From assembly GCA_018302545.1 (NCBI GenBank), contig JAGVZM010000002.1, forward strand, positions 2,198-66,197: a DNA stretch of 64,000 bases. Reading direction: 5' to 3'. Position numbers and translations under genes: made by a program. The notes beneath the pieces were generated by a model. It ran no database searches, was not told the origin of the DNA, and saw only the letters and a program-made list of their open reading frames with translations. The stretch is from Candidatus Woesearchaeota archaeon. GTDB lineage: Archaea; Nanobdellota; Nanobdellia; SCGC-AAA011-G17; GW2011-AR18. Positions 13,864 to 62,580 of this stretch are shown piece after piece; the first letter of the stretch is position 1, and each line of letters opens with the position of its first letter.

Positions 13864-14064
13864 ATGGAAAAAAATCTAAGTTATGAAAAAGAATTAGAAT
13901 TAGCTGAAGATTATGCAAATGATGGCCCTTATGATTGGGATGAAGAACATATGGAAAGATGTCTCAGAAAGGCAATAGAGAAAGCTAAGAAAGAAGGTGT
14001 TGATATCTCAAAAGAAGTAGAGCGTATAAGAAAAATTTGGAAGGATCAAGAAAATGGAAAATAA
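13864..14064 (+). CDS. hypothetical small acidic protein
   Basis: ORF only. Confidence 0.25.
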   Translation: MEKNLSYEKELELAEDYANDGPYDWDEEHMERCLRKAIEKAKKEGVDISKEVERIRKIWKDQENGK

Positions 14065-14141
14065 ATTACCTTATGAAAATCTTTCGGAAATTCTTAGTAA
14101 ATCATTATAAGGGATAAAAGATTATATAAGTTAATTCTAAA

Positions 14142-15557
14142 ATGAAAGTAATAGCTAGAGAGATAATCCAAAATAAAATATTATATGATTTAATATACAA
14201 AGAAAAGTATGACTTTAAAACAAAATTAAAGATTTTTTTGGGTAATCGTCCTTTCATTACAATATTAAAAAAACAAAGAGAAAGAAATAAACTTTATGAA
14301 GGAGAATTAGTTGTAGTAAGGATTAATAAAGAAAATAGAATATACGAATTCATAACAAAAATTAGGGAATGGGGAAAAATAAATATCCCCATTAAAATAA
14401 TTAAAGATTTATCAATAAAAAACAAAGAAAAATTAAAGATAGAATTAATTAAAAATAAAGAATTTAAAAACATAAACAGAGAAAACACTATAAATCTAAC
14501 GAACATAATAAGGTTTAATAAGAAGTTAGAGATTATAAATAGAAATGAAAAGTATATAACAATTTACAAAACAAGTTGTATACCAATTACAATTCCTAGA
14601 ATAATAAAGATAAATGAAGATTTGATAGAAGCAATTTATTTACTGCATGGAGATGGACATTATCAAAAAAAATTATATTTTTCAAACAAGAATTATGATC
14701 TACATAAATTTATAATAAACACTTTCAATAAACAATTATTTATTCCTAAAAAACTATGGAGATATAGAATTAACCACAATAAAAGAGAATTAATAGATAA
14801 AGCAAAAAATTTTTGGATAGAAAATTTAAAGGCAAATAAAAAGAGATTTTATGAAACAAGAAAATTAAGCAGTTTTAATACAGTAAAATATGGAAACTTA
14901 AGATCAATAATAGATAATACAATAGTTTCAGAAATATTCAATTATTTAATTCATAAAATCAAAATAGATAAAGAAAGACTAAGTTTAATTGCTTTAAATG
15001 GAATACTCTCAGCAGAGGGGAATGCTCAAATAGATAAAAAAGGTTTGCACAAAATAACAATTGCATATAACGAAGACGAGAAACAAATGTTCATTAATTT
15101 ATTAATAAAATCAAACCTAAAGAATTTCAAAATAGAACAGAATAAAAGGTTTTGTATTAGAAAATGGGAGCACCAATACAAATTCATCAAAAAATTTCTT
15201 TCAAATAATCTTATACCCTTCAATAAACATAGTGAGAGAAGATTAAACCTTATAATAGGTTTTCTAAATCATTCATACACAAGATCTGCAATAAAATATC
15301 TAGAGATATTAAAACAAGGAAAGAGTTATGAAGAGATAGCAAAAACATTAAATCATAGAAAGGATTCAGTTTTAGAGTTACTCAAAAAAGATAGATATAA
15401 AAAGTTTACTAAGAAAACAATTTCAGGTAAGATTAAGATAAATAAGAGAGGTAAAGAGTTTATAGAAATAACAGAAAAATTAAAAAACATGTTAAAAGAA
15501 ACAGAAAAAGAATATTTAGAGTACATAAAACCAATAAACAAATTCAAGGAGGAGTAA
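14142..15557 (+). CDS. free-standing LAGLIDADG homing-endonuclease-like protein (two motifs)
   Basis: motif 1 IYLLHGDGHY, motif 2 LNGILSAEGNA about 120 aa apart, each followed by the typical helix/sheet pattern; K/N-rich; C-terminal HTH-like segment. Confidence 0.5.
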   Translation: MKVIAREIIQNKILYDLIYKEKYDFKTKLKIFLGNRPFITILKKQRERNKLYEGELVVVRINKENRIYEFITKIREWGKINIPIKIIKDLSIKNKEKLKIELIKNKEFKNINRENTINLTNIIRFNKKLEIINRNEKYITIYKTSCIPITIPRIIKINEDLIEAIYLLHGDGHYQKKLYFSNKNYDLHKFIINTFNKQLFIPKKLWRYRINHNKRELIDKAKNFWIENLKANKKRFYETRKLSSFNTVKYGNLRSIIDNTIVSEIFNYLIHKIKIDKERLSLIALNGILSAEGNAQIDKKGLHKITIAYNEDEKQMFINLLIKSNLKNFKIEQNKRFCIRKWEHQYKFIKKFLSNNLIPFNKHSERRLNLIIGFLNHSYTRSAIKYLEILKQGKSYEEIAKTLNHRKDSVLELLKKDRYKKFTKKTISGKIKINKRGKEFIEITEKLKNMLKETEKEYLEYIKPINKFKEE

Positions 15558-16562
15558 ATGAAATTACCGTTTGAAGAAGAAAATAGAAAAATTTTAGTGA
15601 AGAAAGAAGCTTCCACAGATCCCAAATTTGGGAAAAAACCAGAAGAACGAACAGTAAGAGAACTGTTAGAGTCTTCGGTAATATGTTTAAACAAAGTAGA
15701 AGGTCCTTCTTCACACCAAGTAGCAGACTATGCAAAAAAAGCTCTAGAAGTAGAAAAAATCGGTCACGGCGGGACACTTGGAATCTTTTAAGATTAGTGA
15801 AATCCTGCAGTAACTGGGGTTCTACCTATATCTATAGGAAAAGCTACAAGAATAATGGAGGCTCTTCTAAAATCAGGAAAAGAATATATTTGTTTAATGC
15901 ACATACATACTAAAGTTCAACAATCAAAGATACACAAAGTAGCTAAACAATTCTTAGGAAAAATAACCCAAATGCCTCCTGTAAAGTCTGCAATTAAAAG
16001 ACAATTAAGACAAAGAGAAATTTATTACTTAGAAATCCTAGAAATAAAAGATCAAGATGTACTTTTCAAAGTAGGATGTCAAGCAGGAACCTACATAAGA
16101 ACACTCTGTGTTGGATTTGGAAAAGAATTAGGAACCAATGCGCACATGCAGCAATTGATAAGAACAAAGGCAGGACCATTTAATGACAAAGAATGGTATT
16201 CTCTACAAGACATAAAAGACGCATATCAATTATACAGAGAAGAAAAAGAAGAACAATTAAAGAAAATTCTAAAACCAATAGAGTTTGCCATACAACATTT
16301 ACCTAAAGTATGGGTAAATGATAATACTATAGATTCAATATGCCATGGCGCATCATTAAAAGTCCCAGGAATAATAAAAGTCCATTCAAAGATAGAAAAA
16401 GAAGAATTAGTAGCTATAATGACTTTAAAAGAAGAATTAGTTGCTTTAGGAACATCAAAGATGAATTCAGAAGAAATGATAAAAAATCAAAAAGGATTAG
16501 CAATAAAAACAACAAAAGTCTTTATGGATCGAAATACATACCCTAATTTTAAAAAAGCTTAA
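15558..16562 (+). CDS. cbf5: H/ACA RNP pseudouridine synthase Cbf5 (TruB family), interrupted by a 21-nt BHB intron at 15781..15801; spliced product about 327 aa
   Basis: exon 1 ends ...EVEKIGHGGTL + G; exon 2 supplies AT-CCT-GCA... giving [35 protein letters not shown]; colinear with Cbf5 through the C-terminal PUA domain. Confidence 0.8.
15781..15801 (+). other. predicted archaeal BHB (bulge-helix-bulge) pre-mRNA intron in cbf5
   Basis: GAATCTTTTAAGATTAGTGAA holds TAA, TAG and TGA in frame; exon CACT pairs intron AGTG (4-bp central helix); 3-nt bulges TG|G and AA|A; 6-bp outer helices GCGGGA/TCCTGC and AATCTT/AAGATT. Confidence 0.75.
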
Positions 16563-16586: not shown

Positions 16587-16808
16587 ATGACAAAATGTAA
16601 ATATGAATATCAACAAATAGGATACATTAATTGCAATTATAATGGAGAATGTCCATATAAAAAATTAAATGAAGGAATTAGATGGGAATTAGATGAACTA
16701 GGTCCTACCTGTGAAAGACCTAAAGACCTAGAACCCCCAAAATTAGTAGATCTCCCAAATAAAAATAGAAGGCTAGAAACAATATTAGAATTTCTTCACC
16801 TAGTATAA
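16587..16808 (+). CDS. hypothetical small Cys-containing protein
   Basis: ORF with 4 Cys. Confidence 0.3.
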   Translation: MTKCKYEYQQIGYINCNYNGECPYKKLNEGIRWELDELGPTCERPKDLEPPKLVDLPNKNRRLETILEFLHLV

Positions 16809-61321: not shown

Positions 61322-61456
61322 CGCAAGTTCAAATCACAAGAGTTTCGCAATATTTAAGTAATACAAGCCATAAGTACAATATAACTAGGAGAAAACAAAA
61401 CAAGAGGGTGAAGCGTTATTCGTCAAAACCCACTCTCGAAAGTTCAGATCATAAAG

Positions 61457-61530
61457 TGGGCCCGATGTGATTTGAACACACGACCCCTACCTTATCAGAG
61501 TAGTGCTCCACCAAGCTGAGCTACGGGCCC
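61457..61530 (-). tRNA. tRNA-Ile (anticodon GAT), intron-less
   Basis: reverse complement GGGCCCG-TA-GCTC-AGCTTGGTG-GAGC-A-CTACT-CTGATAA-GGTAG-GGGTC-GTGTG-TTCAAAT-CACAT-CGGGCCC-A. Confidence 0.85.
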
Positions 61531-61557: not shown

Positions 61558-62373
61558 TTATAAAGATTTTGGGAAGCTTTTATAGAAAGAATAAGGGTCT
61601 AAATCTCCTTTAAGAATTAATTCTCTTTGTGGCAAATTAGTATGAGTAGGACAAAAACCAAATTTTTTCCAAACTAAATATTTAGTTAAATGCTTTCGAG
61701 AATTAAAACTAATAGTTTTCATCCATTTTTCTAACATATATTCACCAGAAATTTCTAATTGATTAGAGATATGGGTCTTTTCATATCTTTTCTTTGGAAA
61801 ATTAAATAAAGTAGATGTTTTGAAATTTAATTCTAATAATTTTTCATTAATTTGAGAAACTAAAGAAAATGAGCTAGAATTAAAACTAATAACTGGATAA
61901 GAATGATAAGTATTTTTTCGTTCCTTAAATGTTAAACAAAAATCAGAATCAGCCAAACCTCTAATAAAATCATTAAGAAATCTAGGTTCGAGTATAATAG
62001 AAGATATAAGATGATTAACTTTTGGACCAACTGGAAAATTAAGGGAAGTACTAAGAAAAGTAAAAATACCTTTGGATTGAGTAGACAATTTAAGGAAATC
62101 TCCTGAGTCCCTATAAATTTCATAGATCCTCAAGTTTTTATTAAATAATTTTTTAAACAATTTTACAAAAAAAATTCTATAAAAAATAGATTCATCTATC
62201 AAATGTCCGGCATATTCTAAAGAATAATAATATTTTTTAGGGTTTCCAAGATGGCCGTCACCCCAATGAATCCCTGAAAAATAACTTAATTCTCTAGTTA
62301 ATTTTGTGGGAATATTGATCTTATGAGAGAGGTCATAATTACTATATTGCACATTAGAAACGTCTAAATTCAT
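61558..62373 (-). CDS. free-standing LAGLIDADG endonuclease-like protein (two motifs)
   Basis: motif 1 FSGIHWGDGHLG, motif 2 FIRGLADSDFCLTF about 105 aa apart. Confidence 0.5.
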   Translation of the reverse strand: MNLDVSNVQYSNYDLSHKINIPTKLTRELSYFSGIHWGDGHLGNPKKYYYSLEYAGHLIDESIFYRIFFVKLFKKLFNKNLRIYEIYRDSGDFLKLSTQSKGIFTFLSTSLNFPVGPKVNHLISSIILEPRFLNDFIRGLADSDFCLTFKERKNTYHSYPVISFNSSSFSLVSQINEKLLELNFKTSTLFNFPKKRYEKTHISNQLEISGEYMLEKWMKTISFNSRKHLTKYLVWKKFGFCPTHTNLPQRELILKGDLDPYSFYKSFPKSL

Positions 62374-62455: not shown

Positions 62456-62580
62456 CGCCCTAGGCGGGACTCGAACCTGCGACCCCTTGATCTCTGCTCA
62501 GTAAGTAACAGTTTCACAGTCGTTATGTAGAACACAAGTGCTCTACCTGTTGCTCCCTAATAGGTCTGAGCTACTAGGGC
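62456..62580 (-). tRNA. 125-nt tRNA with two predicted introns (D-loop 62550..62565, 16 nt; anticodon region about 62492..62527, 36 nt); anticodon probably TCT (Arg), identity uncertain
   Basis: acceptor GCCCTAG/CTAGGGC + G, T-arm GCAGG-TTCGAGT-CCCGC (one A-C mismatch), D-stem GCTC/GAGC; D-loop intron has intronic GAGC mimic pairing GCTC plus 3-nt bulges; mature anticodon arm CTTGT-GTTCTAA-TCAAG. Confidence 0.55.

What the first reader, a model, noticed from the sequence alone, without database searches (positions are those of the whole stretch)
14142..15557. Free-standing LAGLIDADG endonuclease-like gene abutting the intron-containing cbf5
A 471-aa K/N-rich ORF has two LAGLIDADG-like motifs (IYLLHGDGHY and LNGILSAEGNA) at the spacing expected for a single-chain homing endonuclease. 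It ends 1 nt before the cbf5 ATG, and the cbf5 Shine-Dalgarno lies inside its 3' end. A second two-motif LAGLIDADG ORF (61558..62373) sits between tRNA-Ile and the twice-interrupted tRNA at 62456..62580. In Archaea such endonucleases normally live inside BHB introns or inteins. Here they stand free but next to BHB-intron-bearing genes, which suggests past intron mobility or domestication.
Basis: partly seen in the sequence, partly recalled or inferred. Interest (0 to 1): 0.6.

Follow-up and report, generated by a model that had tools for sequence, protein, structure and literature searches.

The report
Endonuclease gene partnered with cbf5 mini-intron
A real LAGLIDADG homing-endonuclease-like gene sits directly in front of the cbf5 gene of a Woesearchaeote. 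In relatives it is almost always found beside a cbf5 whose catalytic codon is split by a tiny RNA intron, which points to a way for such archaeal introns to spread.

Summary

It abuts cbf5, which carries a canonical 21-nt BHB intron (15781..15801). The intron lies between the first and second bases of the catalytic Asp codon, the same position as the crenarchaeal cbf5 intron.

Every homologue with enough flanking sequence lies next to cbf5, and in three loci it is inverted. Yet 0 of 80 related cbf5 loci from metagenomes carry it. Linked cbf5 genes have the intron in 18 of 19 loci, against 11 of 73 unlinked loci. The one exception has an altered motif.

In three relatives, and weakly in the window, a relic of an older cbf5 5' end lies upstream of the ORF. 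Another subfamily sits upstream of aIF5B genes whose P-loop is split by a BHB mini-intron.

Best reading: a free-standing homing endonuclease that works with the mini-intron, as in phage "collaborative homing" and yeast WHO elements. Cleavage and target are inferred, not shown. The second ORF (61558..62373) is also a LAGLIDADG fold.

The parts
14054..14110 (+). Possible relic of an older cbf5 5' end (MENKLPYENLSEILSKSL*), overlapping the end of the 66-aa ORF. Weak in the window itself.
   Evidence: A profile of Cbf5 N-termini from ORF1-less loci hits it at 5.3 bits, E 0.65. That is above every hit in 1195 control segments, whose maximum is 4.0 bits. Clear counterparts lie at the same place in L006 (E 4.2e-7), L021 (1.6e-5) and L004 (0.0045). 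Sequences are shown.
14142..15557 (+). ORF1: free-standing LAGLIDADG endonuclease-like gene, 471 aa (NCBI: hypothetical protein J4216_01630, Candidatus Woesearchaeota archaeon).
14214..14456 (+). N-terminal beta-barrel domain (aa about 25-105), PhS018/DUF1905/AbrB-MazE-like.
14604..15206 (+). Single-chain double LAGLIDADG core (aa about 155-355).
14634..14663 (+). LAGLIDADG motif 1, IYLLHGDGHY, with acidic residue D171.
   Evidence: Invariant among the six closest orthologues aligned. D or E in 26/26 family members.
14994..15026 (+). LAGLIDADG motif 2, LNGILSAEGNA, with acidic residue E292.
   Evidence: Invariant among the six closest orthologues aligned. E or D in 26/26 family members.
15231..15446 (+). 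C-terminal MarR-type winged helix-turn-helix (aa about 364-435), followed by a long helix.
15548..15552 (+). GGAGG Shine-Dalgarno-like sequence for cbf5, inside the 3' end of ORF1.
   Evidence: Read directly from the sequence.
15558..15780 (+). cbf5 exon 1 (DKCLD domain), ending GHGGTL plus the G of the Asp codon.
   Evidence: Pfam DKCLD 7.9e-14. Splice reconstruction gives an uninterrupted 327-aa Cbf5.
15781..15801 (+). 21-nt BHB mini-intron between the 1st and 2nd bases of the catalytic Asp codon.
   Evidence: Fold: outer helix GCGGGA/UCCUGC, central helix CACU/AGUG, bulges UG|G and AA|A. The central helix is 4/4 paired, with compensatory changes, in 27 distinct introns. Same position as in Crenarchaeota (PMC2738675).
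15802..16562 (+). cbf5 exon 2 (TruB_N, TruB_C_2, PUA).
61558..62373 (-). ORF2: second, unrelated free-standing LAGLIDADG gene, 271 aa (J4216_01940).
61456..61530 (-). tRNA-Ile(GAT), immediately downstream of ORF2. The same arrangement occurs in L011.
62456..62580 (-). Interrupted tRNA immediately upstream of ORF2: tRNA-Arg(TCT) with two inserts, or tRNA-Asn(GTT) with three.
   Evidence: ARAGORN finds it only after a D-loop insert is removed. Rfam does not detect it. tRNA-Asn(GTT) with inserts holds this position in L009 and L011.

Best explanation
ORF1 is a free-standing LAGLIDADG homing endonuclease that forms a selfish unit with the 5' part of cbf5 and its BHB mini-intron.

Shown:
- The protein has a two-repeat LAGLIDADG core with both metal-binding acidic residues, flanked by two extra DNA-binding modules (an AbrB-like barrel and a MarR-like winged helix).
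- Its stop codon abuts the cbf5 start.
- cbf5 is split at the catalytic Asp codon by a 21-nt intron of canonical bulge-helix-bulge shape.

Inferred mechanism:
1. The enzyme recognises the uninterrupted, highly conserved cbf5 sequence around GHxGTL|DPxVTG and cuts it.
2. In its own genome that site is split by the intron, so the host allele is immune. The tRNA-splicing endonuclease and ligase remove the intron from the mRNA, so Cbf5 is still made.
3. A cut in an intron-less allele (another chromosome copy, or DNA from a related cell) is repaired from the ORF1/intron allele.
4. A short conversion tract copies only the intron, which lies 225 bp from the cbf5 start. A longer tract, anchored upstream, also copies ORF1.
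5. The original insertion displaced the old cbf5 5' end, which survives as a relic upstream of ORF1.

For: Fold and active site:
- 9/26 relatives hit PF14528.
- An acidic residue is kept at both motifs in 26/26 members at 18-53% identity.

Linkage:
- In all 24 distinct loci with enough flank, the homologue is adjacent to cbf5.
- In L016, L020 and L025 it is inverted; in L020 and L025 it sits in the same L31e|cbf5 slot.

Patchiness:
- 0/80 related metagenomic cbf5 loci carry it.
- ORF1+ loci fall in at least 10 places of the Cbf5 tree, next to ORF1-less sisters.

Association with the intron:
- Intron present in 18/19 ORF1-linked against 11/73 unlinked cbf5 genes; Fisher p 1e-10.
- In 10/10 sister contrasts the ORF1+ member has the intron and the ORF1-less sister lacks it; sign test p 0.002.
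- The only ORF1+ locus without the intron (L024) has an extra codon in the motif, GTLDPSVVSG.

Homing-cycle states are all seen:
- A 5'-truncated copy beside an intron-bearing cbf5 in L028.
- An internal deletion in P0007.
- Intron-only alleles.

Relics of a displaced cbf5 5' end lie upstream of ORF1:
- L006 E 4.2e-7, L021 1.6e-5, L004 0.0045, window 0.65.
- None in 55 ORF1-less control loci.

Independent parallels:
- An unrelated LAGLIDADG_3+HTH_3 ORF lies directly upstream of an intron-bearing cbf5 in L048.
- Subfamily members P0122 and P0131 lie directly upstream of aIF5B genes whose P-loop (GH|VDHGKT) is split by a 32-nt BHB intron.

The intron is real: the central helix is 4/4 paired, with compensatory changes, in 27 distinct introns.

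Precedents: PMC6083498 and PMC7282813.
Against: - No cleavage assay and no known target. The immunity role of the intron is inference only.
- There is no sign of recent transfer. The closest ORF1 homologue is 53% identical. The ORF1 and Cbf5 trees are broadly congruent, and the two proteins diverge at similar rates (p-distance 0.556 against 0.535). GC3 is ordinary. No viral relatives were found. Long-term vertical inheritance with many losses would give the same picture.
- The intron occurs in about 11 loci without ORF1 and in Crenarchaeota, where no such gene is known.
- In four lineages ORF1 is fused in frame to cbf5 exon 1, which would be odd for a purely selfish gene.
- The relic in the window itself is statistically weak (E 0.65).
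- The tree used for the contrasts is a simple NJ tree of 306 columns.
- ORF1+ loci and ORF1-less loci come from two different collections.
Confidence: 0.5

Rival explanations
1. ORF1 is a free-standing homing endonuclease that targets cbf5 or the L31e|cbf5 spacer somewhere other than the intron site ('intronless homing'). Its co-occurrence with the mini-intron would then reflect shared history or hitch-hiking, not immunity.
For: - Same fold, patchiness, inversion and relic evidence as the main explanation.
- Other subfamilies flank genes that look uninterrupted: ProRS (L113, L116), a YchF-like GTPase (L112), AP endonuclease (L118), Topo VI A (L011).
- The relic break points lie at codons of about 16, 24 and 51, well upstream of codon 75.
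Against: - The 18/19 against 11/73 association and the 10/10 sister contrasts are hard to get by hitch-hiking alone.
- The single intron-less exception has a changed motif exactly at the intron site.
- The aIF5B subfamily repeats the pattern, with an intron in another catalytic motif.
Confidence: 0.2
2. ORF1 is a domesticated LAGLIDADG scaffold that acts as a DNA-binding regulator of cbf5 transcription, like bacterial WhiA (LAGLIDADG core plus C-terminal HTH), and no longer cuts DNA.
For: - It has three DNA-binding modules.
- It is as conserved as Cbf5 and has co-diverged with it.
- It is divergently oriented in three loci, as regulators often are.
- It is coupled or fused to cbf5.
- Subfamilies are each tied to one housekeeping gene.
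Against: - Both catalytic acids are kept in 26/26 members. WhiA has lost them (established knowledge of the WhiA structure; not re-tested here).
- A useful regulator should not be missing from 80/80 related cbf5 loci, nor occur as truncated or deleted copies.
- It gives no reason for the link with the intron or for the displaced cbf5 5' relics.
- An unrelated LAGLIDADG gene sits in the same slot in L048.
Confidence: 0.17
3. ORF1 is an RNA-level helper (maturase-like) or intron-dependent regulator. It would bind the cbf5 pre-mRNA around the BHB motif and assist or control its splicing.
For: - LAGLIDADG maturases exist; Foldseek ranks the bI3 maturase third for ORF1 and also lists it and I-AniI for ORF2.
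- ORF1 is found almost only beside intron-bearing cbf5.
- The same holds for the aIF5B subfamily.
- Yokobori et al. proposed that the intron down-regulates Cbf5 (PMC2738675).
Against: - About 11 intron-bearing cbf5 loci lack it, as do all Crenarchaeota.
- BHB introns are cut by the splicing endonuclease without helpers (established knowledge).
- The added domains (AbrB-like, MarR-like) are typical double-stranded DNA binders.
- Catalytic acids are conserved.
- Other subfamilies flank apparently intron-less genes.
- It does not explain the relics.
Confidence: 0.08

Closest known systems
Collaborative homing: free-standing endonuclease F-CphI next to the intron-containing psbA of cyanophage S-PM2 (Zeng, Bonocora & Shub 2009; summarised in PMC6083498). 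Related case: T4 mobE/I-TevIII trans homing (PMC2790892).
   Same: - A free-standing endonuclease gene lies next to a conserved gene.
- That gene is interrupted by an ORF-less intron at a conserved site.
- Intron-less alleles exist in relatives.
- The intron is proposed to protect the host allele, while the enzyme mobilises the intron.
   Different: - Here the intron is an archaeal BHB intron of 13-38 nt removed by a protein enzyme, not a self-splicing group I intron.
- The enzyme is a LAGLIDADG protein, not an Endo VII/HNH type.
- The host is a cellular DPANN archaeon, not a phage.
- Cleavage and immunity are not demonstrated.
WHO elements of Torulaspora/Lachancea yeasts, the relatives of HO (Coughlan et al. 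2020, PMC7282813).
   Same: - A free-standing LAGLIDADG endonuclease with an added DNA-binding domain sits next to an essential housekeeping gene that is its target.
- It is present in a minority of genomes.
- Intact and decayed copies coexist.
- A fragment of the target gene's end is left beside the element after the gene end is replaced.
   Different: - WHO elements replace the 3' end of FBA1 and rely on sequence differences for resistance. Here the 5' end of cbf5 appears to be replaced, and an RNA intron is the proposed resistance device.
- No tandem clusters are seen.
- WHO proteins derive from inteins and carry zinc fingers. ORF1 carries AbrB-like and winged-helix domains.
Archaeal intron- and intein-encoded LAGLIDADG endonucleases (I-DmoI, I-Tsp061I, PI-PfuI).
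   Same: The same fold and the same two-motif, single-chain layout with acidic residues at the motif ends.
   Different: - Those enzymes are encoded inside the rRNA intron or intein that they mobilise. ORF1 lies outside the 21-nt intron, which is far too short to hold it.
- ORF1 has two extra domains and gives no direct Pfam hit.
WhiA/DUF199 (bacterial transcription factor built on a LAGLIDADG scaffold plus a C-terminal HTH).
   Different: - ORF1 keeps both acidic residues, whereas WhiA lacks catalytic residues (from the literature; not re-tested here).
- ORF1 is rare and patchy rather than universal in its clade.
- ORF1 has an extra N-terminal barrel.
- No sequence homology was detected.
The crenarchaeal cbf5 pre-mRNA intron (Watanabe 2002; Yoshinari 2006; Yokobori 2009, PMC2738675).
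   Same: - Same gene and same insertion point, between the 1st and 2nd bases of the catalytic Asp codon.
- Same size class (16-44 nt there, 13-38 nt here).
- BHB-type boundaries cut after the second bulge base.
- Repeated gain and loss.
   Different: - Found here in DPANN (Woesearchaeota/Nanoarchaeota), where the intron had not been reported in the literature searched.
- Here a linked endonuclease gene exists. Yokobori et al. noted the intron is too short to encode one and asked for such a case.

Membership tests
LAGLIDADG homing endonucleases (single-chain, two-motif) | Two alpha-beta-beta-alpha-beta-beta-alpha repeats, each opened by a LAGLIDADG helix, packed into a pseudo-dimer. | tested here: met
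LAGLIDADG homing endonucleases (single-chain, two-motif) | An acidic metal-binding residue at the end of each motif. | tested here: met
   D171 and E292 are invariant among the six closest orthologues aligned. D/E at both positions in 26/26 diverse members.
LAGLIDADG homing endonucleases (single-chain, two-motif) | A sequence-profile match to a curated LAGLIDADG family (PF00961, PF03161 or PF14528). | tested here: inconclusive
   ORF1 itself has no hit at E<=1. 9 of 26 homologous family members hit PF14528, best 1.2e-9. Membership therefore rests on transitive homology plus fold.
LAGLIDADG homing endonucleases (single-chain, two-motif) | Site-specific double-strand cleavage of a long (about 18-22 bp) DNA target. 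| not testable with these tools
   Needs purified protein and a substrate.
LAGLIDADG homing endonucleases (single-chain, two-motif) | Optional, patchy occurrence at one genomic site, with decayed copies (the homing cycle). | tested here: met
   0/80 related cbf5 loci carry it. It is scattered in the Cbf5 tree. A truncated copy occurs in L028 and a deleted variant is P0007. No near-identical copies were found in divergent hosts.
Collaborative homing (free-standing endonuclease plus ORF-less intron) | The endonuclease gene is adjacent to a gene that carries an ORF-less intron, and intron-less alleles exist in relatives. | tested here: met
Collaborative homing (free-standing endonuclease plus ORF-less intron) | The enzyme cuts the intron-less allele at or near the intron insertion site, and the intron blocks cleavage. 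| not testable with these tools
   Indirect evidence only: the 18/19 against 11/73 association, and the one intron-less ORF1+ allele has an altered site.
WHO-like homing elements (endonuclease plus replaced end of the target gene) | A fragment of the target gene's displaced end lies beside the endonuclease gene. | tested here: met
   Significant in the relatives L006, L021 and L004. Weak in the window (E 0.65, but above all 1195 control segments).
WHO-like homing elements (endonuclease plus replaced end of the target gene) | Discordant phylogenies or divergence of the two ends of the target gene. | tested here: inconclusive
   The L006 relic best matches the sister lineage L063, while the resident 5' end best matches L033. 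This rests on only 24 residues. No full 5'/3' tree comparison was made.
WhiA-type domesticated LAGLIDADG regulators | A LAGLIDADG scaffold followed by a C-terminal HTH domain. | tested here: met
WhiA-type domesticated LAGLIDADG regulators | Loss of the catalytic acidic residues. | tested here: not met
   Both are retained in 26/26 members.
WhiA-type domesticated LAGLIDADG regulators | Near-universal, single-copy presence across the host clade. | tested here: not met
   Absent from 80/80 related cbf5 loci. Only 18 loci were found among 185,579 species genomes.
LAGLIDADG intron maturases | Encoded within, and required for splicing of, the intron it serves. | tested here: not met
   The gene lies outside the 21-nt intron. 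About 11 intron-bearing cbf5 loci lack it.
Archaeal BHB introns (for the cbf5 interruption) | Helix / 3-nt bulge / 4-bp helix / 3-nt bulge / helix, with cuts after the second bulge base that restore the reading frame. | tested here: met
   In 27 distinct introns the central helix is 4/4 paired through compensatory exon/intron changes (CACT/AGTG, CCTT/AAGG, CTCT/AGAG, CATT/AATG, CTTT/GAAG). The spliced ORF gives GHGGTLDPAVTG.
Archaeal BHB introns (for the cbf5 interruption) | Removal from the transcript in vivo. | not testable with these tools
   Needs cDNA or metatranscriptome reads across the junction.

The most novel reading that the evidence does not exclude
A family of free-standing LAGLIDADG/winged-helix endonucleases in DPANN archaea acts in trans as the mobility engine for ORF-less BHB mini-introns. 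These introns sit in the catalytic motifs of housekeeping protein genes: the Asp codon of cbf5 and the P-loop of aIF5B. Each subfamily is tied to one host gene. The intron serves as the immunity device, and the element spreads by replacing the end of the target gene.

If true, this would be the first homing system for archaeal introns in protein-coding genes. It would also explain why the same cbf5 site is interrupted in both Crenarchaeota and DPANN.
Probability: 0.35. Interest if true: 0.85.

Novelty: new variant of a known kind. Interest (0 to 1): 0.75.

Why it matters
In the literature searched, archaeal introns in protein-coding genes are known only from cbf5 of some Crenarchaeota. Their origin and mobility have stayed unexplained because they are too short to encode an endonuclease. 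Yokobori et al. (2009) explicitly asked for a case with a linked coding sequence.

- The same intron, at the same codon, turns up here in Woesearchaeota, genetically tied to a LAGLIDADG gene. The locus carries footprints of insertion: relics, inversions and decayed copies.
- A parallel case exists at aIF5B.
- This turns an open question into an experiment: one cleavage assay on an intron-less cbf5 junction.
- If the model holds, "collaborative homing" extends from phage group I introns to protein-spliced archaeal introns.
- It would add a family of long-target, three-module meganucleases.
- It flags that gene callers split or truncate cbf5 and aIF5B in DPANN genomes.

Tried and rejected
- **phmmer of either ORF against PDB sequences.** Nothing useful.
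- **ORF1 against ORF2.** No similarity, so they are not paralogues.
- **Profile search with the 26-member alignment in the 5.8-billion protein set.** It returned only 8 proteins because low-complexity candidates swamped the word filter.
- **The search for related loci with the divergent alignment.** It failed for lack of a conserved stretch; a closer alignment worked.
- **Viral contigs.** No relatives.
- **Foreign composition.** ORF1 has low GC (22.3%), but GC3 is normal, so there is no sign of recent acquisition.
- **Recent horizontal transfer.** Not supported: the ORF1 and Cbf5 trees are broadly congruent.
- **Split ProRS in L117 as another mini-intron.** Rejected. It is 99.65% identical to the intact L116 gene with 5 gaps, so it is probably frameshift errors.
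- **Rfam on the interrupted tRNA.** No hit.
- **Chance ORF in AT-rich DNA.** Rejected, given 131 family representatives and conserved synteny.
Full report
**1. The observation**

The 471-aa ORF at 14142..15557 (+) is present as described. Its TAA (15555-15557) is followed at once by the cbf5 ATG (15558), and GGAGG lies at 15548-15552. The motifs IYLLHGDGHY (aa 165-174) and LNGILSAEGNA (aa 285-295) are there, 121 residues apart.

The window is from a Candidatus Woesearchaeota MAG; the identical protein is NCBI J4216_01630. Pfam and NCBIfam do not call ORF1 a LAGLIDADG protein. The only hit is a marginal PilZNR match on aa 25-87. PDB sequence searches are empty.

**2. ORF1 is a real, conserved, three-domain LAGLIDADG protein**

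- Homologues of 40-53% identity exist.
- A profile search of 1.84 billion representatives finds 131 family members.
- An AlphaFold model built on six orthologues (pLDDT 77.8, pTM 0.71) shows two alpha-beta-beta-alpha-beta-beta-alpha repeats between aa 159 and 354.
- Among 26 diverse members, nine hit PF14528 (best 1.2e-9), several hit winged-helix families, and one hits MazE_antitoxin.
- The family profile hits MarR proteins in the PDB at 1.7e-7.
- Both positions that hold the metal-binding acids in LAGLIDADG enzymes are D or E in 26/26 members.

**3. cbf5 carries a bona fide BHB mini-intron at the crenarchaeal position**

Removing 15781..15801 gives an uninterrupted 327-aa Cbf5 with GHGGTLDPAVTG. 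The region folds into outer helix GCGGGA/UCCUGC, central 4-bp helix CACU/AGUG and 3-nt bulges UG|G and AA|A.

In 27 distinct related introns of 13-38 nt the central helix is fully paired. Synonymous changes in the Thr-Leu codons are matched by changes in the intron: CACT/AGTG, CATT/AATG, CCTT/AAGG or GAGG, CTCT/AGAG or GGAG, CTTT/GAAG.

The insertion point lies between the first and second bases of the catalytic Asp codon. That is exactly where the crenarchaeal cbf5 intron is placed (PMC2738675). That paper notes the intron (16-44 bp) is too short to encode a homing endonuclease, and asks for examples with a coding sequence.

**4. Linkage and distribution**

- In every locus with enough flank, the ORF1 homologue is adjacent to cbf5.
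- The usual Woesearchaeal order is S19e / dsDNA-binding protein / L31e / about 0.25 kb / cbf5 / ... / HerA. ORF1 occupies the L31e|cbf5 slot.
- In L006 the upstream context is different (exosome/Rpb6 cluster).
- In L016, L020 and L025 ORF1 is adjacent to cbf5 but inverted; in L020 and L025 it is visibly in the L31e|cbf5 slot.
- None of 80 related cbf5 loci from JGI metagenomes (46-80% identical exon 2) has a family member. A positive control on L001-L031 worked.
- In an NJ tree of 89 Cbf5 sequences, ORF1+ loci fall in at least 10 places beside ORF1-less sisters. Examples: L001/L033, L016/L085, L031/L091, L026/L053, L006/L063.

**5. Association with the intron**

- Eighteen of 19 distinct ORF1-linked cbf5 genes have the intron, against 11 of 73 unlinked ones. 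Fisher p is about 1e-10.
- In 10 of 10 sister contrasts the ORF1+ member has the intron and its ORF1-less sister does not (p 0.002).
- The exception, L024, has no intron but an extra codon right at the site, GTLDPSVVSG.
- Decayed copies occur beside intron-bearing cbf5. L028 keeps only aa 221-471. P0007 is P0004 with the second motif deleted.

**6. Footprints of insertion**

A profile of Cbf5 N-termini from ORF1-less loci was searched against translated segments upstream of ORF1 in 19 loci. It finds relics of a cbf5 5' end:

- L006 (E 4.2e-7): MKLPFEEANKEVIIRKEAKTNPEF, with its own ATG and an AT-rich promoter-like stretch, then the similarity breaks off.
- L021 (E 1.6e-5).
- L004 (E 0.0045).
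- The window at 14054..14110 (E 0.65): MENKLPYENLSEILSKSL*.
- L020, on the far side of the inverted ORF1 (E 0.92).

In 55 ORF1-less loci (1195 segments) nothing scores above 4.0 bits. The relics end at different codons (about 16, 24 and 51), so the junctions differ between lineages. The L006 relic best matches the N-terminus of its ORF1-less sister L063, while the resident 5' end best matches L033. This rests on only 24 residues.

**7. Parallels**

- In L048 an unrelated 566-aa LAGLIDADG_3 (1.3e-6) plus HTH_3 ORF lies directly upstream of, and in frame with, an intron-bearing cbf5.
- Distant ORF1-family members P0122 (L114) and P0131 (L115) lie directly upstream of aIF5B. There exon 1 (MIRQPIITVLGH) is separated from VDHGKT... 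by a 32-nt insert. The insert has central helix UUGG/CCAA, 3-nt bulges and a covarying inner hairpin.
- Other members are convergent with ProRS (twice), a YchF-like GTPase, an AP endonuclease and Topo VI A.
- No paper in the searched library reports an aIF5B BHB intron. A 2025 paper on archaeal splicing endonucleases, where it touches on protein-coding genes, cites only the three cbf5 papers.

**8. Interpretation**

The pattern matches the homing cycle. Empty sites, endonuclease plus intron, decayed endonuclease plus intron, and intron alone are all seen. The single 'endonuclease without intron' case has a changed site.

It has two experimentally established analogues. One is phage collaborative homing, where the psbA intron blocks self-cleavage by the neighbouring free-standing F-CphI (PMC6083498). 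The other is yeast WHO elements, free-standing LAGLIDADG genes next to FBA1 that replace the end of the gene and leave fragments behind (PMC7282813).

I therefore rank 'free-standing homing endonuclease working with the mini-intron' first, at 0.5.

Against it:
- Nothing shows recent transfer. The closest homologue is 53% identical. The ORF1 and Cbf5 trees are broadly congruent, with equal divergence. GC3 is normal.
- The intron exists without ORF1.
- ORF1 is fused in frame to cbf5 exon 1 in four lineages.
- The added winged helix recalls WhiA.

The rivals are: a homing endonuclease with another target (0.2), a WhiA-like regulator (0.17) and a maturase-like RNA factor (0.08). Each is argued in the structured fields.

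**9. The second ORF**

ORF 61558..62373 (-) belongs to a separate family of 32 proteins. Some of them carry PF14528 or are named LAGLIDADG endonucleases. The family has invariant GDG and GLAD.D[FG] motifs and a very conserved C-terminal KHLTKYLVWKKFGFCPP module.

Its model (pLDDT 92.9) matches I-Tsp061I, I-DmoI and the Tli VMA intein endonuclease at E down to 2.4e-9.

In L011 it lies between an intron-bearing tRNA-Asn(GTT) and tRNA-Ile(GAT). In L009 it follows an interrupted tRNA-Asn(GTT). In the window it lies between the interrupted tRNA at 62456..62580 and tRNA-Ile. So it too is consistently next to an intron-bearing gene.

**10. Verdict**

The thing is a new variant of known kinds (free-standing homing endonuclease, collaborative homing, WHO-like end replacement) in a setting where none was known: archaeal BHB introns in protein-coding genes. 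Cleavage activity, target and transfer remain to be shown.

Noticed in passing
L115:5375-5460 and L114:1955-2040: aIF5B genes in two DPANN contigs have a 12-codon exon 1 (MIRQPIITVLGH) separated from VDHGKT... by a 32-nt BHB-like insert. The insert has central helix UUGG/CCAA, bulges ACA and AGA/AAA, and a covarying inner hairpin. Gene callers start the gene after the insert. In the literature searched, only cbf5 was known as an intron-bearing archaeal protein gene.
   Followed up: partly
L048:1993-3849: A different 566-aa LAGLIDADG_3 + HTH_3 ORF, not matched by the ORF1 family profile, lies directly upstream of an intron-bearing cbf5 and is in frame with its exon 1.
   Followed up: partly
L004:7061-9295; L006:7533-9773: In these relatives cbf5 exon 2 also contains an intein with its own LAGLIDADG_3 domain. 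One gene thus carries a mini-intron, an intein and a neighbouring ORF1 homologue.
   Followed up: no
L004:5401-7032, L021:4260-5831, L023:4848-6416; protein P0006: The ORF1 homologue has no stop codon before cbf5 and runs in frame into cbf5 exon 1. After splicing, an ORF1-Cbf5 fusion protein is conceivable. Otherwise cbf5 starts internally (GTG in L004).
   Followed up: no
L024:3440-3500: This is the only ORF1-linked cbf5 without the intron. It reads GTLDPSVVSG, one codon longer than the usual GTLDPxVTG, at the exact intron site. It could be a resistance change or a scar of imprecise intron loss.
   Followed up: partly
window 62456..62580 (-): An interrupted tRNA missed by ARAGORN defaults and by Rfam. 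After a 16-18-nt D-loop insert is removed, ARAGORN calls tRNA-Arg(TCT) with a 36-nt intron. By synteny and sequence (GCACTTG|ACTGTTA|ATCAAGGGGTC) it can instead be read as tRNA-Asn(GTT) with three inserts.
   Followed up: partly
L011:3822-4881; L009:1591-2611: ORF2 homologues keep the order: intron-bearing tRNA-Asn(GTT), then ORF2, then (in L011) tRNA-Ile(GAT). The tRNA-Asn inserts sit at different positions in each genome (D-loop in L011, T-arm in L009).
   Followed up: partly
L011:1473-2633 (-): A distant ORF1-family member (E 2.4e-27) is convergent with Topo VI subunit A. The adjacent Topo VI B gene carries an intein. The same marine contig also holds the ORF2 homologue.
   Followed up: no
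L113, L116, L117 (ProRS); L112 (YchF-like GTPase); L118 (AP endonuclease): Each ORF1 subfamily seems tied to one particular housekeeping neighbour. Two members each flank ProRS and aIF5B. Whether those neighbours carry hidden mini-introns or variant target sites was not examined.
   Followed up: no
window 13864..14064 (+) and 16587..16808 (+): Two small ORFs (66 and 73 aa) flank the ORF1-cbf5 pair and have no family match. The 73-aa ORF has a counterpart downstream of cbf5 in L032. The 66-aa ORF overlaps the putative cbf5 relic.
   Followed up: no
cbf5 exon sequence around 15769..15808: The outer helix of the BHB is made by conserved codons themselves: GGG-A of Gly-Thr pairs with U-CCN of Asp-Pro. 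This may predispose the site to hold a BHB intron in distant archaeal lineages.
   Followed up: no
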